Assembly: GCA_001776785.1 (NCBI GenBank) | Contig: MFDF01000016.1 | Span: 1-53,607, forward strand | Length of the DNA stretch: 53,607 bases | Reading direction: 5' to 3' | Source of the DNA: Candidatus Daviesbacteria bacterium RIFCSPHIGHO2_12_FULL_37_16 | GTDB lineage: Bacteria > Patescibacteriota > Microgenomatia > Daviesbacterales > UBA10151 | In this document: in pieces, positions 156-26,825 of the stretch | How positions within the stretch are numbered: the stretch's first letter is position 1 | How the letters are laid out: every line of letters begins with the position of its first letter | Made by a program: the position numbers and the translations under genes | The notes under the pieces: model-generated | Database searches by the model: none | Told to the model about the DNA's origin: nothing | Seen by the model: only the letters and a program-made list of their open reading frames with translations

Positions 156-2126
156 ATGGCATTAGAACAAGTTGGTCAGAACACTCCAGATACCTCAGAA
201 CTCTTATCTATTTTCGCAGCTCACAGAAATCAAGAGAAACAACTTTCATGGAGTGGTCCTTTGAGTGAATATTTAGCACTTGTTGGGGAAAATCCTAAAG
301 TAGCCAGACTGTCCCATGCCAGAGTATATGACATGATTAGTGCTAGGGGTGTGGAAGCTCAAGGTGAAGGTAAACCCCCAAGATATAAATTTTTTGAAAG
401 TGAGTTGTTTGGAGTAGATGAGCCAATATCACAGATAGTGGATTATTTTTCTGCAGCTGCCAGAGGATTAGAGGTCAGGAAGAGGATTTTACTATTGATG
501 GGTCCAGTTGGAGGAGGTAAATCTACAGTAGTGGCTATGTTGAAGAGAGGGCTTGAAGAATATACCAGAACACCTGAAGGTGGGGTTTATGCTATAAGCG
601 GATGTCCAATGTATGAAGAACCACTGCATCTTATTCCTGATGCTCTGAGGCCTGAGGTCTCCAGGGTTCTTAACGTAAAAATTGAAGGTGATTTGTGCCC
701 TCATTGCAGGATGGAACTTTCTGATAGGCATGATGGTAAATATGAAGATGTTGAGGTGGTCAGGTATGCTTTTTCTGAAAAAGAGAGAAGAGGAATTGGA
801 ACCTTTTCACCTTCTGATCCAAAGTCGCAGGATATCTCTGAGTTGACTGGTTCTATAGACCTGTCTACCGTAGGCAGATATGGGAGTGAGTCAGATCCAA
901 GAGCTTACAGGTTTGATGGTGAACTAAATATTGCCAATAGAGGAATGATGGAGTTTATAGAGATGTTAAAGTCAGATGAGAAGTTTTTGTATGGACTTTT
1001 AAGCTTATCCCAGGAGCAGTCAATTAAGACAGGCAGGTTTGCTATGATTTATGCTGATGAGGTATTGGTATCCCATACTAATGAGTCTGAATATAATGCT
1101 TTTGTAGCAAATAAAAAGGGTGAGGCCCTGCAGGACAGGATTATTCAGGTCAAGGTTCCCTACAACTTAAGGTTATCTGATGAGATGAAAATTTATGATA
1201 AGCTTTTGAGGGATACAACAGATATTGCTATTGAAAGGGCTCCTTTGGATGGTGAGGTACATATATCTCCTGGTGTTTTAAGGGCAGCGGCTATGTTTGC
1301 TGTATTGTCCAGGTTGACTCCAACTAAAAAAGAAGGGGTGAATTTAATGACAAAGCTTAAGCTTTATGATGGTCAGGATGTTGGAGATTTAAAGCAAAAA
1401 GATTTGCGAGAACTTAAGGAAGAGGCGGCTGAGACACGTGAAGGTATGGATGGTATTTCACCAAGATACATAACCAATAGGCTATCTTCTGCGCTAGTCC
1501 AGGAAGGTGCGCAGTGCCTAAATCCAATAGATGCTCTCAGGTCTTTTAGGGATGGTTTAGAGAGTGTGCCTGGTTTGACTAAAGAAAAAAAGGATGAATA
1601 TTTAAAACTTCTTGGAGAAGTGAGGGGTGAATATGATGAGAAAGCTAAAACTGATGTGCAGAGAGCATTTATTGGCTCCTTTGAAGATAACATCCAGACA
1701 ATAATGGATAACTATATGGATAATATAGAGGCTTTCTGCAACAAGAGTAAGGTTAAGGATGCTTATACTGATGAAGAGGTGGATCCTGATGAGAGGTTGA
1801 TGAGAGAGATTGAGGAACAGATTGGGGTGACTGATGGCCAGAAAGCTGGTTTCAGGCAGGAAATTGTTAATATAATGGGGTCTAAACTCAGAAAGGGCGA
1901 AAAATTTGATTCTACAAGTCATGAGAGGTTAAGAGAGGGATTGGAAAAGAAGCTGTTTGCTGATATGAAAGATATGGTTAAAGTAACCACTTCTACCAAA
2001 ACACCTGATGCAGATCAGCAGAAGAGGATTGACGATGTGCAGTCAGCATTGATTAGAGAGAGAGGTTACTGCACATGCTGTTCTTCTGAACTCTTAAAGT
2101 ATGTAGGTAGACTTCTTAACCGCTAA
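156..2126 (+). CDS. prkA: PrkA/YeaG family AAA+ ATPase / serine protein kinase
   Basis: Walker A GPVGGGKS, CPMYEEPLHLIP, DPRAYRFDGELNIANRGMMEFIEM; first gene of the canonical three-gene operon. Confidence 0.95.
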   Translation: MALEQVGQNTPDTSELLSIFAAHRNQEKQLSWSGPLSEYLALVGENPKVARLSHARVYDMISARGVEAQGEGKPPRYKFFESELFGVDEPISQIVDYFSAAARGLEVRKRILLLMGPVGGGKSTVVAMLKRGLEEYTRTPEGGVYAISGCPMYEEPLHLIPDALRPEVSRVLNVKIEGDLCPHCRMELSDRHDGKYEDVEVVRYAFSEKERRGIGTFSPSDPKSQDISELTGSIDLSTVGRYGSESDPRAYRFDGELNIANRGMMEFIEMLKSDEKFLYGLLSLSQEQSIKTGRFAMIYADEVLVSHTNESEYNAFVANKKGEALQDRIIQVKVPYNLRLSDEMKIYDKLLRDTTDIAIERAPLDGEVHISPGVLRAAAMFAVLSRLTPTKKEGVNLMTKLKLYDGQDVGDLKQKDLRELKEEAAETREGMDGISPRYITNRLSSALVQEGAQCLNPIDALRSFRDGLESVPGLTKEKKDEYLKLLGEVRGEYDEKAKTDVQRAFIGSFEDNIQTIMDNYMDNIEAFCNKSKVKDAYTDEEVDPDERLMREIEEQIGVTDGQKAGFRQEIVNIMGSKLRKGEKFDSTSHERLREGLEKKLFADMKDMVKVTTSTKTPDADQQKRIDDVQSALIRERGYCTCCSSELLKYVGRLLNR

Positions 2127-2134
2127 TTTTAAAA

Positions 2135-3316
2135 ATGGGTGTTGAACTTTTTTTGTCCAGTCATCAGGTAAGGTTTGATGGTATGGGAGATAAGGCTTCC
2201 AGGGATGTGGCGCGCCATAACGAAAAGATTAAGGATGTAATAAGGCAGCAGCTGCCTGGCATTATTGGAGAAGAATCAATTATTACTGGCAGCGATAAAG
2301 GAATTGTTAAAATTCCAATCAGGAGTCTGGAAGAGCCTTATTTTAAGCATGGGGATAACAGTGCTCAAGAAGGTTATGGACAGGGTGATGGTAATACCCA
2401 AATTGGTGATGTTATTGGCCAAGTGCCTAGTAATGAGCCTGGAAATGGTCATAAACCTGGCGAAATTCCCGGGATTGACTACTTAGAGGTTGATGTGACA
2501 ATTGACCAGTTGGCTGCCTGGATGTTTGAGGATCTGGGGCTGCCTTTTTTAGAAAACAGAGGGAAGGCTATAATACCTTCAGAGCATGTTAAATTTGATG
2601 ATATAACCAAAAAAGGGCTGATGGGAAATTTGGATAAGAGAAGGACTGCCCTAGAGAATATCAGGAGAAGGGCGCTGGGTGGGTTAGAACCGGTTTTTGA
2701 AGATGTCAATGAGGATGATTTAAGATTCAGAAACTGGGAAATCAAAAAAAGAGAGGAATCCAATGCAGTGGTTATAGCAATGAGGGATATCTCAGGGAGT
2801 ATGGGAGAGTTTGAGAAGTATATATCCAGAAGTGCATATTTTTGGATGACCAGATTTTTAAGGACTAAGTATGAGAATGTTGAGATAGTTTTTATAAACC
2901 ATCAGACTGAGGCTAAAGAGGTAAATGAGGAGGCATTTTTTTATTCAGGTGAGAGCGGAGGGACAAAAGTCTCTTCTGCTTATCAGCTGGCCTGTGATAT
3001 AACAAAACAAAGATATCCAAAAGAGGATTGGAATACATACCCATTCCATTTTTCAGATGGGGATAACTGGGGTGAGTTGGATAATATTAAATGCAAGGAT
3101 TTAATATTAAGAGGACTTGATGAGTTGGGGTGGAATGCTTTTGGATATGCTGAAATTCAGGAGGGGGGCCGGCGTTCTGCCAGCACTTTAATGACAGTAA
3201 TGGAAGAGATAGAACATGAAAGGTTAATGAAAGCTGTTATTACTAGTAAGGATGAGGTCTACGGTGCAGTTAAAACTTTTTTTGGAAAAACTGAGGCTTT
3301 AGCAGCTGCTTTATAA
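2135..3316 (+). CDS. yeaH: YeaH/YhbH (DUF444) protein with vWA-like C-terminus
   Basis: IPIRSLEEPYF, DLRFR, MRDISGSM MIDAS-like motif, ESGGTKVSSAY, YPFHFSDGDNW; follows prkA. Confidence 0.93.
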   Translation: MGVELFLSSHQVRFDGMGDKASRDVARHNEKIKDVIRQQLPGIIGEESIITGSDKGIVKIPIRSLEEPYFKHGDNSAQEGYGQGDGNTQIGDVIGQVPSNEPGNGHKPGEIPGIDYLEVDVTIDQLAAWMFEDLGLPFLENRGKAIIPSEHVKFDDITKKGLMGNLDKRRTALENIRRRALGGLEPVFEDVNEDDLRFRNWEIKKREESNAVVIAMRDISGSMGEFEKYISRSAYFWMTRFLRTKYENVEIVFINHQTEAKEVNEEAFFYSGESGGTKVSSAYQLACDITKQRYPKEDWNTYPFHFSDGDNWGELDNIKCKDLILRGLDELGWNAFGYAEIQEGGRRSASTLMTVMEEIEHERLMKAVITSKDEVYGAVKTFFGKTEALAAAL

Positions 3317-3317
3317 C

Positions 3318-4853
3318 ATGGAAACTATAAGTGATGATCAAAAACCCTCTGTTCCCATTATTTTGAGAGGCGGCGGAGCTGTAGAGCTTGATTTAAAAGA
3401 CAGTGTTTCAGCCATTGCTGAGATCTCTGAGGAAGTTGGTTTGAAGCCATGTAAAACTTACTTTGATATGGTTCCAGCTGAGACTATGTATGAATATGGG
3501 GCATATGGTATTCCAGGCAGGTTTGGTCACTGGACTCATGGTAGGGATTACTACAGGATGAAGACCATGTATGACCATGGTTTTTCTAAAATTTACGAGC
3601 TGGTGATAAATGATGATCCGGCTTATGCTTATCTTCTGGAGACAAATCCTCCTATAGCTAATAAATTAGTGGTGGCTCATGTGGTGGGACATGTTGATTT
3701 TTTTCAGAAGAATATGACCTTTAGCCATACAAACAGGAGGATGGTGGAGACTGTCCAGCAAACAGCTGCTAGGTTTGCAGAATATGAAGATCTTTATGGA
3801 ATTGATGCGGTTGAGGCAGTAATTGATGCTGCAATATCACTTAGCAAAAATATTGATACCCATCCAAAAGGATTTAACCGGTTACCCAAGGATCAATATG
3901 TTGCCGAGAGTTTGAGAAGGTCGCGTGATGAGCTGAAGGGGAAGGGTATATCCACATCAGAATATGATGACATTTGGAGTTTGGGGGCCCCTAAGAAAGA
4001 AGAACCAAATGAACGGCCTAAGATAACTGTTCCTTATGAGGCAGACCCTGATTTGATGTGGGTTATTTCAGAATTTTCACCAATTTTAATGGATTGGCAG
4101 AAGGATATATTACTTAGTGTGAGGGCTGAGCAGCAGTATTTTATCCCCCAAATGTTGACTAAGATAATGAATGAAGGCTGGGCTTCACTCTGGCATACCA
4201 GGATAACCAGGGAGCTTATTGCACGGGGTTTAGTGAGTGATGACGAGGCAATGCAGTATGCTCGATTGCACAGCGGAGTTATTTCAGGAAATAGACGCAA
4301 CCTTAATCCCTATGGACTGGGGCTCAGGATTTGGGAAGATATTGATGATAAGTATCATGGAAGGGTAGATTGGGGTGAAGAAAGAGAGATTGATAGGTGG
4401 GGAGAGGTGATAGATCCAGAAAGTTATGTGGGCAGGGAAGATCATGATATTTTCAGGGTGAGGGAAACCATGGTAGACCAGGGGTTTTTGCGAAACTTTC
4501 TTTCAGGAAGAATTATCAGGGAGCTTGATCTGTATGGTTATAGAAGAGAAGGTGACAGGCTTGTGGTAGAAGAGAAAGATCCACAAAAAATCAGGGAAGG
4601 GTTGGTTGCCTCTATGGATAGATGGGGTTTACCGAGCATTGTTATTCCAAAAGGAGGAGCAAACTATACCAGCAGCAGGGAACTTTATTTAGAGCATGAG
4701 TTTGAGGGGGAAGAGCTTGATGAGAAATATGCTCAGGAGACTTTGAAGAGGGTTTTTTATCTCTGGGGAAGGCCTGTGCATTTGCAGGCTAGAATAAGAG
4801 GCAGTGAGACTACAATCCACTGCTCTGAGGGCCCTACAGTTTTAACTGTATAA
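3318..4853 (+). CDS. spoVR: SpoVR/YcgB family protein
   Basis: YGIPGRFGHWTHG, KIYELVIN, AHVVGHVDFF, TKIMNEGWASLWH, NPYGLG, LWGRPVHL. Confidence 0.95.
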   Translation: METISDDQKPSVPIILRGGGAVELDLKDSVSAIAEISEEVGLKPCKTYFDMVPAETMYEYGAYGIPGRFGHWTHGRDYYRMKTMYDHGFSKIYELVINDDPAYAYLLETNPPIANKLVVAHVVGHVDFFQKNMTFSHTNRRMVETVQQTAARFAEYEDLYGIDAVEAVIDAAISLSKNIDTHPKGFNRLPKDQYVAESLRRSRDELKGKGISTSEYDDIWSLGAPKKEEPNERPKITVPYEADPDLMWVISEFSPILMDWQKDILLSVRAEQQYFIPQMLTKIMNEGWASLWHTRITRELIARGLVSDDEAMQYARLHSGVISGNRRNLNPYGLGLRIWEDIDDKYHGRVDWGEEREIDRWGEVIDPESYVGREDHDIFRVRETMVDQGFLRNFLSGRIIRELDLYGYRREGDRLVVEEKDPQKIREGLVASMDRWGLPSIVIPKGGANYTSSRELYLEHEFEGEELDEKYAQETLKRVFYLWGRPVHLQARIRGSETTIHCSEGPTVLTV

Positions 4854-4857
4854 AAGG

Positions 4858-4916
4858 TGTGACCCCAGCTGGATATATCACAATTTTTTAAATTGCTGAA
4901 CCAGCGACAAATTGAT
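4858..4916 (-). pseudogene. Duplicate 3' half of tRNA-Lys with a 23-nt hairpin replacing 2 nt of the T-loop
   Basis: tgtgaccccagctggat (4858-4874) is identical to 5032-5048; after the insert 4875-4897, gaaccagcgacaaattgat matches the tRNA's gaaccagcgaccaattgat. Confidence 0.8.
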
Positions 4917-4955
4917 AACACACCCAATCCGCCAGTTGGCGGATTGCAAGAGTCT
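4913..4955. repeat. Palindromic element ACACCCAAT-[hairpin]-ATTGCAAGAGTCT, copy 1
   Basis: tgataacacacccaat ccgccagttggcgg attgcaagagtct; flanks shared with copies at 4993-5032 and 18386-18417. Confidence 0.85.
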
Positions 4956-4958
4956 CTA

Positions 4959-4996
4959 TGTGAGGGCGCAGGGATTCGAACCCTGGACCGAATGAT
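4959..4996 (-). pseudogene. 3' half of a different tRNA (Lys-like) sequence
   Basis: Minus strand reads ATCATTCGGTCCAGGGTTCGAATCCCTGCGCCCTCACA: intact T-arm CAGGG-TTCGAAT-CCCTG plus acceptor 3' strand, no 5' half. Confidence 0.75.
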
Positions 4997-5032
4997 AATA
5001 CACCCAATTTGCTACGCAAATTGCAAGAGTCT
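4993..5032. repeat. Palindromic element ACACCCAAT-[hairpin]-ATTGCAAGAGTCT, copy 2
   Basis: tgataatacacccaat ttgctacgcaa attgcaagagtct. Confidence 0.85.
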
Positions 5033-16163: not shown

Positions 16164-16679
16164 TTAGGATAAGAGAGAACTAAAGAGGTCTTTTATTTCT
16201 GAAATTTCATTTTTAACAAATTCTATAAAATTAAATCTTAAATCCACTTCAGCAGAAGGATTAGAGGTTGGAGAGGGATTAGAAGATGGACTTGCACTAG
16301 CAGTTGGGGAGGGTGAAACGTTCACCTCAACTTTTTGACCATTAACATTGACATCTACTGAAGTGTTGACTGTTGAGCTTTTTTGTTGGACCACATTTGA
16401 ACTTGAAGTATCAGAGGAGACATCAACTTTTGAATTTCCATCAGAGGATTCAAGATGAACACTTCCTCCTTCTTCTGAGTGATATTCTTTCCTTTCCCCA
16501 TTTGTTTCTATGACAACATCTGTTTTAGATTTTGAGGTGTTAGACTGGTTTGAATTAATATTTACACTATTTTTTGATCCATCAAGGTTGTTTGAGATTT
16601 CAACTGAAATTTTTGCAGAAGCTAAAGAGGGAAAGGCTAAAAGAACTAAGCTTAAAAAAATCAGGGCAGATTTTTTCAT
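16164..16679 (-). CDS. Secreted Ser/Pro-rich hypothetical protein
   Basis: Signal peptide; SPSPTASASPSSNPSPTSNPS linker. Confidence 0.8.
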   Translation of the reverse strand: MKKSALIFLSLVLLAFPSLASAKISVEISNNLDGSKNSVNINSNQSNTSKSKTDVVIETNGERKEYHSEEGGSVHLESSDGNSKVDVSSDTSSSNVVQQKSSTVNTSVDVNVNGQKVEVNVSPSPTASASPSSNPSPTSNPSAEVDLRFNFIEFVKNEISEIKDLFSSLLS

Positions 16680-16788
16680 AGGGCTTACTATTATAACCTA
16701 TTGGTCAAGGGAAGTTAGTAGTAAAACAGTAAGAAGATTTGTCTTTAGTAGAGAAAAAAGCTCATTCTTGGTAAAATATGGGTTATAC

Positions 16789-16854
16789 GGTGGTCGTAGC
16801 CCTGCCTGCCGGCAGGTTAACCTGCTGCAAGCATGGCAGGTCAATGGCAGAGCA
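16789..16854 (+). pseudogene. Duplicate 5' part of tRNA-His interrupted by a 40-bp palindromic insert
   Basis: GGTGGTCGTAGC (16789-16800) + TCAATGGCAGAGCA (16841-16854) equals the first 26 nt of tRNA-His at 17117. Confidence 0.85.
16801..16840. repeat. Two adjacent CCTGC...GCAGG palindromes
   Basis: cctgcctgccggcagg ttaa cctgctgcaagcatggcagg; relatives at 21409-21431 and 39393-39410. Confidence 0.8.
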
Positions 16855-16859
16855 CTCTG

Positions 16860-17105
16860 ATGTATTACGTTTATATCCTCAAGAGTCAAAAGGATAATAA
16901 TTTTTATACTGGAATTACTAATAATATTGAAATCCGCTTAAGACAACATAATATTGGGTATTCTTCCACAAGGTCAACTAAGAATAGAGGTCCATTTATA
17001 TTAGTATTTGCTCAAGAGTGTTCTGACAGAAATGAGGCACATGCTTTAGAAAAGTACCTCAAATCAGGTGAAGGTAGAGAATTAAGAGATAAACTGTTAA
17101 AATAG
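16860..17105 (+). CDS. Small GIY-YIG nuclease
   Basis: MYYVYILKS...FYTGITNNIEIRLRQHN...STKNRGPF...EAHALEKYLKSGEGR; start at ATG 16860. Confidence 0.93.
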   Translation: MYYVYILKSQKDNNFYTGITNNIEIRLRQHNIGYSSTRSTKNRGPFILVFAQECSDRNEAHALEKYLKSGEGRELRDKLLK

Positions 17106-17116
17106 GCATTGTTTAT

Positions 17117-17192
17117 GGTGGTCGTAGCTCAATGGCAGAGCATCAGATTGTGGATCTGACGGTTGCGGGTTCAACTCCCGTCGATCACCCCA
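17117..17192 (+). tRNA. tRNA-His(GTG)
   Basis: G-1 GTGGTCG ... TCAGA-TTGTGGA-TCTGA ... GCGGG TTCAACT CCCGT CGATCAC C CCA. Confidence 0.97.
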
Positions 17193-17280
17193 AGAGGTGT
17201 AAGCTATTTTCTTATAAAAGATCACCTGTGATTGTAATCTACTGTATTAATAAGTATTGTTAATTTAGTATAGATATACT

Positions 17281-18258
17281 ATGAATATTAAAGTTAGCTG
17301 TTTTTGGGGCATGCTCTTCTTCCTTATTATTTTCTTCTCTGTTCTATCATCCCCTGTATTTGCTGCTAAATCCTCCTCTAGTCTGGGGTCAACGCTTGCA
17401 CAAAAAAGGATCAAAATTGGTGCAAAACTGAGAGAATATAAACCACCAACCAAAGCTGATTGTGATATTCGGGTCCCTAAGCAATATCCCACAATCCAAG
17501 CAGGTATAGATGCTGCACTAACTGGGAATACTATATGTGTTGATAAAGGAACTTATAACGAAGACATAGTTATTAACAAATCCATTCGGCTTTCTGGAAA
17601 AGGAACTCTTAAAACCATAATTAATGGTCAAAACCCAGACGCATCTGGTACAGTGTATATTACGGCCAAAAATGTCATTGTAGAAGGGTTTTCCATCAAT
17701 GGGGTTGGAAATAACCGTGGTACTGCTGCAGTACGCCAATTTGAACAAGTTTACGACACTATAATCCGATACAACCGAATTGTGGCTGGAAACGGACAAT
17801 TGGCCTTCCTGACAGATAATGCCCAAAATAATAACCTTGTTGCAAACAACATATTAGTAGGTAATAACTCCCCAGATATAGCCAAAGTTAATGCGTTTGA
17901 TAGCAATAAACCTACAGATAAAGTTGATTTTCTAAACAATACATTTATAGGAACAGTAAGCCCGACTGATTGGCAAACCGAAGCATTCGTATTAGATGCT
18001 GGTGCTCCAAACAGCTTGATTCAACAAAATGTTTTTAATGCGACAGGTACAATGGTAGCAGTGATTGCTTCTAATAACAGCAGTAGCATCCACGAAAATA
18101 ATTTCAATGGTGGAACTACCATAAAAGTTGCTGGTGGATGGGGACCTTCTGATCTGAATGCTGAAAATAACTGGTGGGGAGATTCAGCCCCATCAGATAA
18201 TGTCCAAGGAGCTATTGATTTCACTCCATTTGCAACAAGTCCATTTACAGAAAATTAG
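17281..18258 (+). CDS. Secreted right-handed beta-helix (pectin lyase-like/NosD-like) protein
   Basis: Signal peptide; VPKQYPTIQAGIDAA..G.TI.V..GTYNE; Asn-rich repeats; AENNWWG. Confidence 0.85.
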   Translation: MNIKVSCFWGMLFFLIIFFSVLSSPVFAAKSSSSLGSTLAQKRIKIGAKLREYKPPTKADCDIRVPKQYPTIQAGIDAALTGNTICVDKGTYNEDIVINKSIRLSGKGTLKTIINGQNPDASGTVYITAKNVIVEGFSINGVGNNRGTAAVRQFEQVYDTIIRYNRIVAGNGQLAFLTDNAQNNNLVANNILVGNNSPDIAKVNAFDSNKPTDKVDFLNNTFIGTVSPTDWQTEAFVLDAGAPNSLIQQNVFNATGTMVAVIASNNSSSIHENNFNGGTTIKVAGGWGPSDLNAENNWWGDSAPSDNVQGAIDFTPFATSPFTEN

Positions 18259-21365: not shown

Positions 21366-21447
21366 CCGACTACAGACTTCCGACTATAGCAAGACAGTTT
21401 TGCGGTAGACCTGCCTGTCCGGCAGGCAGGCCGTAGACGGTAGTCAG
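21362..21447. repeat. Inverted heptamer-repeat element with nested CCTGCCTGTCCGGCAGGCAGG palindrome
   Basis: Left arm ctgaccgactacagacttccgactat; right arm ggtagac[insert]cgtagacggtagtcag. Confidence 0.7.
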
Positions 21448-26693: not shown

Positions 26694-26695
26694 CA

Positions 26696-26731
26696 AGATT
26701 TAAATTTCGGATTCATTCGGGATTTAAATCT
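26696..26731. terminator. Inverted repeat right after tRNA-Arg
   Basis: AGATTTAAAT...ATTTAAATCT arms. Confidence 0.5.
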
Positions 26732-26768
26732 TTCTCCTCGTTTGGAATTCTAAACTAATCTCTGATTT

Positions 26769-26825
26769 GGTTCGTTAATCCGAAGGATTAGGACATATCC
26801 CTCTGGGGGTGCTCACTCTGGGGGT
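26769..26825 (+). repeat. Two duplicates of the tRNA-Arg 3' end, the first with a hairpin in the T-loop
   Basis: ggttcg[ttaatccgaaggattaggacat]atccctctgggggtgc (to 26812), then ctctgggggt 26816-26825. Confidence 0.8.

What the first reader, a model, noticed from the sequence alone, without database searches (positions are those of the whole stretch)
16772..17192. GIY-YIG nuclease cassette between a broken tRNA-His 5' copy and the intact tRNA-His
Removing the 40-bp insert at 16801-16840 restores an exact copy of the first 26 nt of tRNA-His. The nuclease ATG follows 5 nt later, and the real tRNA starts 11 nt after its stop (seen). The duplication is of the 5' end, unlike typical integrase att sites, and the apparent promoter (TAAAAT 16772) would transcribe fragment, nuclease and tRNA together. 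The insert belongs to the CCTGCC..GGCAGG family also seen at 21409 and 39393. Inference: a minimal selfish element that targets tRNA genes and may spread the palindromes. Together with the Lys and Arg loci, this is the best candidate for an undescribed system in the window.
Basis: partly seen in the sequence, partly recalled or inferred. Interest (0 to 1): 0.85.

Follow-up and report, generated by a model that had tools for sequence, protein, structure and literature searches.

The report
Tiny nuclease cassette nested in tRNA-His
An 81-residue DNA-cutting enzyme gene sits between a broken front piece and the intact copy of this genome's only histidine tRNA gene, and the same layout recurs at many other tRNA genes in related small-genome bacteria, so it looks like a very small selfish element that lives inside tRNA genes without breaking them.

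Summary
Window 16789-16800 plus 16841-16854 is an exact 26-nt copy of G-1 to position 25 of tRNA-His, split by a 40-bp palindromic insert. An 81-aa GIY-YIG ORF (16860-17105) follows, then the genome's only tRNA-His (17117-17192).

It is not a one-off. Of 147 small GIY-YIG genes in 41 genomes of the same class, 88 lie within 200 nt of a tRNA, 82 of them on the same strand; 2.3% is expected by chance. Of 49 with the tRNA just downstream, 23 carry an exact copy of at least 11 nt of that tRNA's 5' end upstream of the ORF, against 0 of 49 in the reverse-complement control. These fragments usually carry a GC-rich hairpin whose sequence follows the nuclease clade, not the tRNA type. The layout also appears across the phylum and in records labelled as other phyla.

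The protein belongs to the minimal Slx1-like/UPF0213 branch. Its catalytic residues are conserved and dN/dS is 0.07-0.26.

Best reading, at 0.6: a free-standing, homing-type nuclease cassette nested in a partial tRNA-gene duplication. Mobility is inferred, not shown. I found no description in seven literature searches; phage SegB is the closest known. That it spreads the palindromes is untested.

The parts
16749..16777 (+). Promoter-like site (TAGAGA, 17 nt, TAAAAT, with TG before the -10) in front of the tRNA-His 5' fragment
   Evidence: consensus match only, no transcript data
16789..16800 (+). tRNA-His 5' fragment, first part (G-1 to position 11)
   Evidence: 12 of 12 identical to 17117-17128
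16801..16840 (+). 40-bp GC-rich palindromic insert: unit CCTGCCTGCCGGCAGG, TTAA, diverged unit CCTGCTGCAAGCATGGCAGG. It sits at the same tRNA position (11|12) as the single 20-nt palindrome in the G015 and G023 cassettes.
16841..16854 (+). tRNA-His 5' fragment, second part (positions 12-25)
   Evidence: 14 of 14 identical to 17129-17142
16860..17105 (+). 81-aa stand-alone GIY-YIG nuclease ORF (Slx1-like/UPF0213 type), stop codon included
17075..17103 (+). Second promoter-like site with the same hexamers (TAGAGA, 17 nt, TAAAAT, TG), embedded in the last codons of the ORF, 13 nt before G-1 of the tRNA
17117..17192 (+). Intact tRNA-His (GTG) with encoded G-1; the only tRNA-His found in the 1.02-Mb assembly
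21410..21430 (.). Second copy of the palindrome family in the window (CCTGCCTGTCCGGCAGGCAGG), 26 nt upstream of a DinB-like ORF; not tRNA-linked

Best explanation
The locus is one copy of a widespread class of very small (about 0.3-0.4 kb) free-standing nuclease cassettes that live nested inside a partial duplication of a tRNA gene. The cassette consists of a clade-specific GC-rich palindrome, a catalytic-domain-only Slx1-like GIY-YIG gene, and a replacement copy of the short side of the tRNA. Here the replacement is the promoter-proximal 5' part, with a -10-like box built into the last codons of the ORF. The tRNA therefore stays intact and expressed, and the displaced original 5' piece remains upstream with the old promoter. 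Inferred mechanism: the nuclease breaks a cassette-free tRNA gene (or a structure formed there). The break is repaired from a cassette-bearing copy, with the two tRNA-derived segments (the fragment on one side, the intact tRNA on the other) acting as homology arms. Everything between them is copied in. In effect this is intron-less homing in which a duplicated 'exon' replaces splicing. The palindrome interrupts the upstream repeat, so it could no longer be a target and could recombine less easily with the intact copy. Shown here: the anatomy, its recurrence, its patchy distribution, conservation of the protein and of the palindromes, and homology confined to the cassette. Inferred: nuclease activity, its target, and the homing step.
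For: (1) Recurrence. Among all 147 small GIY-YIG hits in 41 genomes of the class, 88 have a tRNA within 200 nt and 82 of those are on the same strand. In G000, 2.3% of random 245-nt intervals do. The same holds in a phylum-wide sample (22 of 28 loci), in species-representative genomes (53 of 80) and in metagenome contigs (44 of 80, all 44 same strand).
(2) Duplications. Of 49 loci with the tRNA just downstream, 23 have an exact copy of at least 11 nt of that tRNA, mostly starting at position 1, within 150 nt upstream of the ORF. The reverse-complement control gives 0 of 49. In 4 of 48 loci with the tRNA upstream, a 3' fragment follows the ORF (L017, L034, L063, L127). So the shorter side of the tRNA is the duplicated one.
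(3) At least 15 tRNA isotypes are involved.
(4) Not fixed. Of 22 other tRNA-His loci, 2 are filled, 4 have a fragment plus hairpin but no ORF, and many are plain promoter plus tRNA, including close relatives by GatA identity (G014, G011, G002, 72-75%). The most similar cassette (78% aa) is in G015, whose GatA is only 56% identical.
(5) Homology between cassettes stops at the cassette. L009 (after tRNA-Glu) and L010 (after tRNA-Leu-CAG), from two families, are 84% identical over 395 nt, running from the last 5 nt of the tRNA to the end of the ORF. L048 and L055 align only from fragment to tRNA end. In contrast, non-tRNA copies of the other clade align over 1.0-1.6 kb of flanks.
(6) The protein is kept functional. 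Y5, Y16, R26, H30 and E64 are invariant in 30 sequences, dN/dS is 0.07-0.26, and the model is confident (pLDDT 91.2) with a GIY-YIG fold.
(7) Fragments match their own genome's tRNA acceptor strand in 18 of 25 cases, although acceptor stems differ between genomes and dS between cassettes is 0.7-1.5. The fragments are therefore renewed or homogenised, not old debris.
(8) GC-rich hairpins are present upstream of 18 of 23 fragment-bearing ORFs, against 8 of 65 non-tRNA copies and 3 of 300 random windows. The hairpin sequence follows the nuclease clade across tRNA types: His+Leu, Asp+Ala+Gly, Lys+Arg, Asn+Lys.
(9) A second classical homing-endonuclease family occupies the same slot. An HNH_3 ORF (E 4.7e-10) runs into the 5' end of tRNA-His in G033 and in G023:C81.
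(10) Precedent. Phage SegB, a GIY-YIG homing endonuclease, cuts inside tRNA genes, co-localises with tRNAs and drives recombination-dependent segmental amplification (PMC13096335, sections 9 and 10 read).
Against: No nuclease activity, cut site or transfer event is shown. The protein has no DNA-binding domain, unlike SegB or I-TevI, so sequence-specific homing is not obviously within its reach. Its nearest solved relatives are structure-specific (Slx1, At-HIGLE). The intact tRNA-His is identical to the fragment over 26 nt, so any target inside positions 1-25 would also exist in the cassette-bearing allele, and self-immunity is unexplained. tRNA sequence lies on both sides of the palindrome, so a simple model with one insertion point does not produce the anatomy. 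dS between cassettes is near saturation (0.7-1.5), so no recent transfer is documented. One pair (G008-G011: GIY 85%, GatA 85%) looks vertical. The G000-G015 discordance rests on a single marker protein. No empty-site allele of this very locus was seen: contigs of four other runs were identical or uninformative, and contigs hide rare variants. An exact 29-nt flank search of metagenome contigs found nothing. A test for donor/recipient chimerism in acceptor stems was uninformative: 1 case favours the fragment and 6 favour the intact copy. 59 of 147 copies are not tRNA-linked, and these are mostly a separate syntenic clade.
Confidence: 0.6

Rival explanations
1. The element is centred on the palindrome. 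The small Slx1-like nuclease is structure-specific and acts on its cognate GC-rich palindrome, extruded as a hairpin or cruciform. tRNA genes are only the safe, well-expressed harbour. The same nuclease-palindrome pair would account for the dispersed, in-frame palindrome insertions elsewhere. It overlaps with the best explanation and differs in what is cut.
For: The nearest structures are structure-specific nucleases: Slx1 TM 0.66-0.74, At-HIGLE TM 0.74, against I-TevI 0.6 (HMM search). There is no DNA-binding domain. The palindrome type tracks the nuclease clade, not the tRNA. The palindromes are perfectly conserved (20 of 20 between G015 and G023) although dS exceeds 1. The palindrome family is mobile: a 7-aa in-frame insert in GatA is present in 2 of 18 aligned orthologues, and the exact 16-nt core occurs in 19 of 41 genomes against 0 for the reversed control.
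Against: Most palindrome copies lie kilobases from any tRNA or GIY-YIG gene. Genomes rich in this palindrome (G032 10 copies, G007 7, G040 7) have no member of the His/Leu nuclease subclade in the tree. Copy numbers do not correlate (rho 0.24, p 0.14). A hydrolytic GIY-YIG nuclease has no known strand-transfer chemistry for inserting a palindrome.
Confidence: 0.2
2. An ordinary host gene. A vertically inherited repair-type UPF0213 nuclease is simply co-transcribed with tRNA genes in compact genomes. The tRNA fragments would be debris from tandem duplications in tRNA clusters, and the hairpins would be RNA processing or stability signals.
For: Same-strand, tight spacing, with the ORF often ending inside the tRNA. 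No terminator-like site lies between the ORF and the tRNA. There is strong purifying selection. Dunin-Horkawicz et al. 2006 (PMC1564403, passages read) regard prokaryotic stand-alone Slx1-like proteins as mainly vertical and repair-related. Clade A copies are syntenic across genera. The G008-G011 pair looks vertical.
Against: This does not explain why the fragment is always of the adjacent tRNA, on the far side of the ORF, of the shorter side, and interrupted by a clade-specific palindrome. Nor does it explain near-identical cassettes behind different tRNAs, up to 13 copies in a 0.7-Mb genome, or the patchy occupancy of tRNA-His.
Confidence: 0.15
3. A remnant attachment site of an integrase-type island, or a degenerate tRNA intron. 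The duplication would be an att repeat or exon remnant, and the nuclease gene leftover cargo.
For: Partial tRNA duplications are the classic footprint of integrating elements (PMC9897764, passages read).
Against: The whole interval between the repeats is 317 bp and holds only the 81-aa ORF; there is no integrase. The duplicated part is the 5' end with promoter. The same minimal layout recurs dozens of times. Rfam finds only tRNAs in the window and no intron ribozyme. The downstream tRNA is complete.
Confidence: 0.03

Closest known systems
SegB of T-even phages (free-standing GIY-YIG homing endonuclease in the tRNA gene cluster)
   Same: A GIY-YIG nuclease gene lying among tRNA genes. SegB cuts inside tRNA genes, and its cleavage motif RAWTSGAAC is, on my reading, the complement of the T-loop box. 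SegB homologues are enriched within 1 kb of tRNAs, and the breaks lead by homologous recombination to duplication of tRNA-containing segments (PMC13096335, sections 9 and 10 read; PMC2330249, listing and start of abstract only).
   Different: SegB carries a C-terminal region that our protein lacks; its size of about 220 aa is recalled and comes from no call. It belongs to the HEase/UvrC branch and lives in phage genomes. The protein here is 81 aa, catalytic domain only, of the Slx1-like branch (I-TevI is only E 0.0038, and there is no PHROG hit), and it is chromosomal. It sits inside a partial duplication of one tRNA gene, together with a conserved palindrome. None of this is described for SegB in the parts I read.
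Prokaryotic stand-alone Slx1-like / UPF0213 proteins (BH0048 1zg2, EF2693 1ywl) and eukaryotic Slx1 / At-HIGLE
   Same: Best sequence and fold matches: 1zg2 E 3.5e-18, 1ywl 1e-15, Slx1 7.7e-9; Foldseek 1zg2, 7wme, 7cq3, 6seh. Minimal domain with no auxiliary domain, as described in PMC1564403.
   Different: That family is described as mainly vertically inherited and repair-related, with neighbourhood links to a methyltransferase. The passages I read hold no statement about adjacency to tRNA genes or tRNA-fragment duplications. Slx1 needs Slx4 and a RING domain.
Integrase-borne islands and prophages in tRNA genes (att duplications)
   Same: A mobile insert inside a tRNA gene that carries a replacement for the displaced tRNA part, so the gene stays intact and a partial copy marks the far end (PMC9897764).
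   Different: Those elements are kilobases long, encode a recombinase, and duplicate the 3' part. Here the insert is one 81-aa nuclease gene, there is no recombinase, and in this locus the 5' part with its promoter is duplicated.
Free-standing GIY-YIG genes in fungal mitochondria that enter the ends of protein genes carrying a substitute gene end (recalled from memory, not checked in any call)
   Same: A nuclease gene plus a replacement piece of the host gene, with the displaced original piece left as a pseudo-fragment.
   Different: The target there is a protein-coding gene, in an organelle, and the endonucleases are multi-domain. The one mitochondrial paper I opened (PMC4162613, passages) reports truncated gene copies but does not tie them to GIY-YIG genes.
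Rickettsia palindromic elements / REP-RAYT systems (recalled from memory)
   Same: Short palindromic repeats dispersed in a small genome, some of them in frame inside housekeeping genes.
   Different: The palindrome here is only 16-21 nt. No HUH transposase is involved, and a link to the GIY-YIG nuclease is not shown.

Membership tests
GIY-YIG nuclease superfamily (PF01541) | Profile match over the curated cut-off | tested here: met
   E 1.8e-18, 67 bits against a cut-off of 22.6, residues 1-70 on profile positions 1-71 of 78
GIY-YIG nuclease superfamily (PF01541) | Conserved catalytic set (two Tyr of the GIY and YIG motifs, Arg, His, Glu) | tested here: met
   Y5, Y16, R26, H30 and E64 invariant in 30 sequences. 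Their assignment to catalytic roles is by analogy with I-TevI and is recalled.
GIY-YIG nuclease superfamily (PF01541) | GIY-YIG alpha/beta fold | tested here: met
   pLDDT 91.2; matches to 1zg2, Slx1, At-HIGLE and I-TevI catalytic domains (TM 0.56-0.74)
Prokaryotic stand-alone Slx1-like / UPF0213 | Closest sequence relatives are UPF0213 proteins and Slx1 rather than the HEase/UvrC branch | tested here: met
   1zg2 3.5e-18, 1ywl 1e-15, Slx1 7.7e-9, I-TevI 0.0038; UvrC is not among the listed hits
Prokaryotic stand-alone Slx1-like / UPF0213 | Minimal domain, no auxiliary domain, no conserved C-terminal Asn (as defined in PMC1564403) | tested here: met
   81 aa, with Pfam covering residues 1-70. 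One search lists no invariant or nearly invariant Asn, whereas E64, K68 and G72 are conserved.
Homing endonuclease gene (free-standing) | Presence/absence polymorphism of the gene at a conserved target | tested here: met
   2 of 22 other tRNA-His loci filled, 4 with a scar-like fragment plus hairpin, many plain. This is between genera only; nothing is known within a species.
Homing endonuclease gene (free-standing) | Site-specific cleavage of the cassette-free allele and nuclease-dependent gene conversion | not testable with these tools
   Needs biochemistry and a donor/recipient assay
Homing endonuclease gene (free-standing) | A DNA-binding module that gives a long recognition site | tested here: not met
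   catalytic domain only. So I do not file it as a classical homing endonuclease; I say only that it most likely works like one.
Homing endonuclease gene (free-standing) | Phylogeny discordant with the host's | tested here: inconclusive
   G000-G015 GIY 78% against GatA 56%, but G008-G011 85% against 85%. Only one marker was used and dS is near saturation.
Integrase-type tRNA-integrating island | Recombinase gene between the att repeats; 3'-end duplication | tested here: not met
   317 bp lie between the repeats and hold only the GIY-YIG ORF. The duplicated part is the 5' part.
tRNA group I intron with an endonuclease ORF | Intron ribozyme interrupting the tRNA | tested here: not met
   the only Rfam matches in the window are 8 tRNAs. 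The tRNA-His is uninterrupted.

The most novel reading that the evidence does not exclude
Stand-alone Slx1-like (UPF0213) nucleases, so far treated as repair proteins of unknown role, include a large radiation of the smallest autonomous mobile elements yet seen in bacteria, at about 0.3-0.4 kb. Each is a nuclease paired with its own cognate palindrome. It uses the two halves of a tRNA gene as portable, universally conserved homology arms, and so can move between tRNA isotypes, species and perhaps phyla without an intron, intein, integrase or transposase. The same nuclease-palindrome pairs seed the short in-frame palindromes found in housekeeping genes and the ORF-less fragment modules at many tRNA genes.
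Probability: 0.3. Interest if true: 0.9.

Novelty: new variant of a known kind. Interest (0 to 1): 0.8.

Why it matters
If the reading is right, it gives a large family of uncharacterised small nucleases (UPF0213, the prokaryotic Slx1-like proteins) a concrete and testable biology. It would add a new way for a selfish gene to sit inside an essential gene without harming it: a duplicated gene piece takes the place of splicing. It would also explain why partial tRNA genes with odd hairpins litter tRNA loci in small-genome bacteria, which matters for tRNA annotation. These genomes are about 1 Mb and hold single-copy tRNA genes, so an element occupying up to a quarter of tRNA loci is a notable load (about 10 of 40 in this genome if the ORF-less modules are counted). 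The clade-specific nuclease-palindrome pairs would be a ready-made set of very small nucleases with distinct DNA preferences to test at the bench.

Tried and rejected
- NCBIfam and PHROGs gave no hit for the protein.
- The RNA fold of the leader (16786-16870) gave -32.7 kcal/mol, z -1.57, with 15 of 200 shuffles as good. The fold is no better than its composition predicts.
- Expression: no RNA holder was listed for the stretch.
- Reads: contigs of four DNA runs laid on 16400-17600 gave no joint that skips the cassette. One record that seemed to bridge 16853 to 17162 is another organism's tRNA-His aligning to the fragment.
- An exact 29-nt upstream-flank search of metagenome contigs gave 0 matches.
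- The protein search of metagenome contigs found no close relative (best 57%). I used it only as a further sample for tRNA adjacency.
- The self-association job for two copies of the protein returned no verdict.
- The search for related loci with the 30-sequence alignment failed for lack of a conserved stretch. The single protein was used instead.
- The flanking genes of the window locus have no detectable counterpart beside tRNA-His in 22 relatives, so no orthologous empty site could be defined.
- PPDK and RmuC from the window were too patchy among relatives to serve as a divergence yardstick. GatA was used instead.
- The acceptor-stem chimerism test was uninformative.
- The palindrome-versus-GIY copy-number correlation was not significant.
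- An L004/L047 dN/dS value came from a misregistered pair and is discarded.
- No 5' tRNA fragment lies upstream of the HNH ORF at tRNA-His in G033.
- Rejected as explanations: chance (the 26-nt collinear identity and its recurrence); assembly artefact (the same sequence is in contigs of several runs); intron; integrase island.
Full report
1. WHAT IS AT THE COORDINATES

The window is contig C16:1-53607 of a 1.02-Mb, 36.8% G+C assembly with 27 contigs and 40 tRNA genes, only one of them tRNA-His.

- 16789-16800 and 16841-16854 together equal 17117-17142 at 26 of 26 positions, that is G-1 plus positions 1-25 of tRNA-His.
- The two pieces are separated by a 40-bp insert, 16801-16840.
- The insert is two palindrome units: CCTGCCTGCCGGCAGG, then TTAA, then a diverged second unit.
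- Five nucleotides after the fragment, an ORF begins (16860-17105, 81 aa). It is a GIY-YIG domain and nothing else (PF01541, E 1.8e-18).
- Eleven nucleotides after its stop comes G-1 of the intact tRNA-His.
- A promoter-like site with a TG-extended TAAAAT lies at 16749-16777. The same pair of hexamers recurs at 17075-17103, inside the last codons of the ORF and 13 nt before the tRNA.
- No terminator-like site lies anywhere in 16600-17350.

2. THE LAYOUT IS GENERAL

A search of 41 genomes of the same class found small GIY-YIG homologues in 38, with up to 10 copies each. I fetched every hit: 147 loci, including the two other copies in this genome.
- tRNA proximity: 88 of 147 have a tRNA within 200 nt, and 82 of the 88 are on the same strand. 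In 47 the tRNA is downstream of the ORF and in 35 it is upstream. In this genome only 2.3% of random 245-nt intervals lie that close to a tRNA.
- Overlap: in many loci the ORF has no stop of its own and ends inside the tRNA, often at the conserved T8-A9-G10.
- 5' fragments: of the 49 loci with a same-strand tRNA just downstream, 23 carry an exact copy of at least 11 nt of that tRNA within the 150 nt upstream of the ORF, mostly starting at tRNA position 1. The reverse-complement control gives 0 of 49. The isotypes include His, Glu, Leu, Gln, Tyr, Asp, Lys, Asn, Gly, Arg and Pro.
- 3' fragments: of the 48 loci with the tRNA upstream, 4 have a 3' fragment after the ORF, starting at position 56-59 or in the anticodon region.

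The nuclease gene therefore sits inside a partial tandem duplication of a tRNA gene, and the shorter side is the one duplicated.

The same picture holds in three further samples:

| Sample | tRNA within 200 nt | Flagged fragment |
|---|---|---|
| Best loci from a phylum-wide draw of 121 genomes (family present in 89) | 22 of 28 | 12, of which one is probably only the T-loop box shared by two neighbouring tRNAs |
| Species-representative genomes | 53 of 80 | 35 |
| Metagenome contigs | 44 of 80, all 44 same strand | 17 (only 55 loci had 200 nt on both sides) |

The species-representative sample includes records labelled Bacteroidales, Prolixibacteraceae, Flavipsychrobacter, Margulisiibacteriota, Planctomycetota and 'uncultured Gammaproteobacteria'. 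Labels of binned genomes may be wrong.

3. THE HAIRPINS

The upstream fragments are almost always interrupted by a GC-rich perfect palindrome. It is either inserted in the D-loop region or replaces the anticodon arm in register.

| Region scanned | With a GC-rich hairpin (perfect stem of at least 6 with at least 5 G-C pairs) |
|---|---|
| Upstream of fragment-bearing loci | 18 of 23 |
| Other tRNA-downstream loci | 12 of 25 |
| Loci with the tRNA upstream only | 12 of 33 |
| Copies not linked to a tRNA | 8 of 65 |
| Random windows of this genome | 3 of 300 |

A few palindrome 'species' recur, and they follow the nuclease clade rather than the tRNA (tree; table).
- CCTGCCTGCCGGCAGGCAGG: the His and Leu cassettes of five genomes, which form one subclade.
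- TCCGCCAGCYGGCGGA: the Asn and Lys cassettes.
- GTCCGATG...CATCGGAC: Asp, Ala and Gly.
- CCCCGATTAAATCGGGG: Lys-TTT and Arg-TCT.
- CCCCGCTNAGCGGGG: Gln.

The 20-nt palindrome is identical in the G015 and G023 His cassettes and sits at the same tRNA position (11|12) as in the window. Yet synonymous divergence between these cassettes is above 1. The palindrome is therefore a conserved component of the cassette and not a random scar.

4. THE PROTEIN

- Invariant residues: thirty homologues share Y5, Y16, R26, H30, A60, E64 and K68.
- Selection: dN/dS is 0.15 (window against G015), 0.26 (against G023), 0.07 and 0.10 for two other pairs.
- Profile search of solved structures: UPF0213 proteins BH0048 (E 3.5e-18) and EF2693 (1e-15), then Slx1 (7.7e-9), and I-TevI only at 0.0038.
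- Model: confident, pLDDT 91.2. It superposes on BH0048, At-HIGLE (TM 0.74) and Slx1 (0.66-0.74), and on I-TevI at 0.6.

The protein thus belongs to the minimal Slx1-like branch. Dunin-Horkawicz et al. 2006 describe this branch as the ancestral stand-alone form, mostly vertical and repair-related. In the passages I read they report no link to tRNA genes (PMC1564403).

A FastTree of 139 of the 147 proteins was built. Eight were dropped for internal stops or a length under 60 aa. Rooted at the midpoint, it splits into two clades.
- A clade of 63, of which 17 are tRNA-linked. Many members are syntenic across genera over 1.0-1.6 kb. The two other copies of this genome fall here.
- A clade of 76, of which 59 are tRNA-linked. 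The window copy falls here.

5. SIGNS OF MOBILITY

(a) Occupancy of tRNA-His is patchy. Among 22 other tRNA-His loci in relatives:
- 2 have the GIY-YIG gene (G015, G023);
- 4 have a 5' fragment plus hairpin plus a 30-130-nt spacer but no ORF (G030, G012, G019, G020);
- many are a plain TAAAAT promoter plus tRNA, including G014, G011 and G002.

By GatA identity, G014, G011 and G002 are among the closest relatives of this genome (72-75%). G015 has the most similar cassette (78% aa), yet its GatA is only 56% identical.

(b) Homology between cassettes ends at the cassette. L009 lies after tRNA-Glu and L010 after tRNA-Leu-CAG, in different families. They are 84% identical over 395 nt, running from the last 5 nt of the tRNA to the end of the ORF, and unrelated outside it. 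So at least one move between tRNA isotypes has occurred. L048 and L055 (Asn) align only from fragment to tRNA end, and the window and G015 only from ATG to tRNA end.

(c) The fragments track their own genome's tRNA. The acceptor 5' strand is identical in 18 of 25 recognisable fragments, although acceptor stems differ between genomes. This requires renewal or gene conversion.

(d) A second classical homing-endonuclease family uses the same slot. An HNH_3 ORF (E 4.7e-10) runs into the first 23 nt of tRNA-His in G033 and in a G023 contig. It has no upstream fragment.

Against recent movement:
- dS is 0.7-1.5.
- One pair looks vertical (G008-G011: 85% for both GIY and GatA).
- No empty allele of this very locus was found in contigs of other runs or in metagenome contigs.

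6. HOW IT MOST LIKELY WORKS

Shown: the anatomy and its recurrence.

Inferred: the cassette is a free-standing, homing-type selfish gene. A break in a cassette-free tRNA gene is repaired from a cassette-bearing copy. The left end pairs with the upstream fragment and the right end with the intact tRNA, so the palindrome, the ORF and a fresh 5' tRNA part, complete with its -10-like box, are copied in. The tRNA stays whole and needs no splicing.

The palindrome breaks the upstream repeat into 12- and 14-nt pieces. That would hinder deletion of the cassette by recombination between the repeats, and it would destroy any target in the old piece. The fragment-plus-hairpin loci without an ORF fit the decay stage of such an element.

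The model for the nuclease step is phage SegB. SegB cuts inside tRNA genes, is enriched next to tRNAs, and causes recombination-dependent duplication of tRNA segments (PMC13096335, sections 9 and 10).

Weak points:
- The protein has no DNA-binding domain, and its structural kin are structure-specific nucleases.
- The intact tRNA in the cassette-bearing allele would still be a target.
- tRNA sequence lies on both sides of the palindrome, which a single insertion event does not explain.

The main rival therefore makes the palindrome, extruded as a hairpin or cruciform, the real substrate of a clade-matched nuclease. I put the homing-type reading at 0.6, the palindrome-centred variant at 0.2, an ordinary co-transcribed host gene at 0.15, and an integrase or intron remnant at 0.03.

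7. THE PALINDROME FAMILY ON ITS OWN

- Copies in this genome: 12 by a strict pattern, and 8 exact 16-nt cores. Nearly all are kilobases from any tRNA.
- Most lie inside long ORFs and read ...PAGRQ... in either orientation.
- In GatA the palindrome is a clean 7-aa in-frame insert (AVPAGRQ). It is present in this genome and in G008 and absent from the 16 other aligned orthologues.
- The exact core occurs in 19 of 41 related genomes at 1-10 copies each. The reversed control gives 0 everywhere.
- Its copy number does not follow GIY-YIG copy number (rho 0.24, p 0.14).
- Palindrome-rich genomes such as G032, G007 and G040 have no member of the His/Leu nuclease subclade.

The palindrome is mobile, but the claim that this nuclease spreads it is untested.

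8. COMPARISON WITH WHAT IS KNOWN, AND NOVELTY

Seven full-text searches were run. Their terms combined GIY-YIG, tRNA gene, fragment, duplication or pseudogene, Patescibacteria or Candidate Phyla Radiation, UPF0213/YhbQ, Slx1 and selfish. None found a description of chromosomal stand-alone GIY-YIG genes nested in tRNA-gene duplications.

What the searches did show:
- A 2024 paper notes GIY-YIG proteins in insertion sequences of rRNA genes of these bacteria and judges them to be outside homing (PMC11270868, passages).
- A 2023 paper attributes prokaryotic tRNA gene fragments to integrating elements and to CRISPR spacers (PMC9897764, passages).

The library lacks most subscription journals, and supplements were closed, so prior description cannot be excluded.

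I rate the finding a new variant of a known kind: a free-standing homing-type nuclease gene that targets tRNA genes. The unusual features are the minimal Slx1-like nuclease, the duplicated gene piece in place of an intron, and a clade-specific palindrome.

9. VERDICT

Interest is 0.8. The next step is a cleavage assay together with a donor/recipient transfer assay.

Noticed in passing
window 26695-26812 (after tRNA-Arg-TCT) and 4859-5032 (after tRNA-Lys-CTT, minus strand); also G000 C2:81346-81470, C2:81549-81675, C6:71164-71290, C22:5215-5340, C23:30970-31095, C23:113600-113715, C16:62764-62845: ORF-less modules of about 100-120 nt follow 8-9 of the 40 tRNA genes. Each ends in an exact 16-nt copy (13 and 12 nt in two cases) of that tRNA's own 3' end, from the T-loop to the discriminator. 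The copy is preceded by a shared core AGATCTTTGATCTGGTTCG, a hairpin, and (T)AGGACATAT or GGGTGT. The core occurs 8 times in the genome, always in this setting, and once in a relative (L011, after tRNA-Pro). This looks like a second family of small elements that target tRNA 3' ends; the duplication resembles a target-site duplication. The Lys locus holds two nested modules, one of which carries the 3' part of a different tRNA.
   Followed up: partly
G000 C2:72490-72505 (GatA), C2:104084-104099 (UvrC-like 459-aa ORF), C11:2746-2761 (aminopeptidase-like ORF), C11:7406, C1:18037, C8:143651; window 21410-21430: The CCTGCCTGCCGGCAGGCAGG palindrome lies in frame inside long ORFs and reads ...PAGRQ... 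In GatA it is a 7-aa insert shared by G000 and G008 only, out of 18 aligned orthologues, at the same site. G000 and G008 are not each other's nearest relatives. Either the insertion is site-specific or the segment was exchanged.
   Followed up: partly
L158 1556-2095 (minus strand; G033) and L176 3-377 (G023:C81): An HNH_3 endonuclease ORF (179 aa, E 4.7e-10) runs into the first 23 nt of tRNA-His and stops in the D-loop. This is the same slot the GIY-YIG gene occupies in the window. No upstream tRNA fragment is present.
   Followed up: partly
L149 (G030), L164 (G012), L165 (G019), L168 (G020), upstream of tRNA-His: tRNA-His 5' fragments of 12-22 nt, each with a hairpin and a 30-130-nt spacer but no ORF, lie directly in front of the intact tRNA-His. 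They may be decayed cassettes, or a hairpin element acting alone.
   Followed up: partly
L174 (G008), just after tRNA-His: An atypical tRNA-His (acceptor stem GAGACGT...) is followed by a 3' fragment that matches the usual tRNA-His 3' end of the relatives. It looks as if the gene was replaced by a foreign copy and the old end left behind.
   Followed up: no
G000 C6:69273-69491 (-) and C23:6385-6606 (-): Two further small GIY-YIG genes in the same genome are not next to tRNAs. They fall in the other clade, whose members keep conserved flanks across genera, so they look like a stable host version of the same fold.
   Followed up: partly
window 17075-17103: The last codons of the nuclease ORF (…GRELRDKLLK*) double as a promoter-like site with the same -35 and -10 hexamers as the site in front of the fragment. 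The similarity between the two upstream regions (GTAGAGAA...TGnTAAAATA) suggests that the duplication includes the tRNA promoter.
   Followed up: partly
window 156-4853: A PrkA-type AAA kinase (656 aa) and a SpoVR-like protein (511 aa) flank a 393-aa ORF. This stress or sporulation-associated trio lies next to the tRNA-Lys locus. It is ordinary, but I did not expect it in so small a genome.
   Followed up: no
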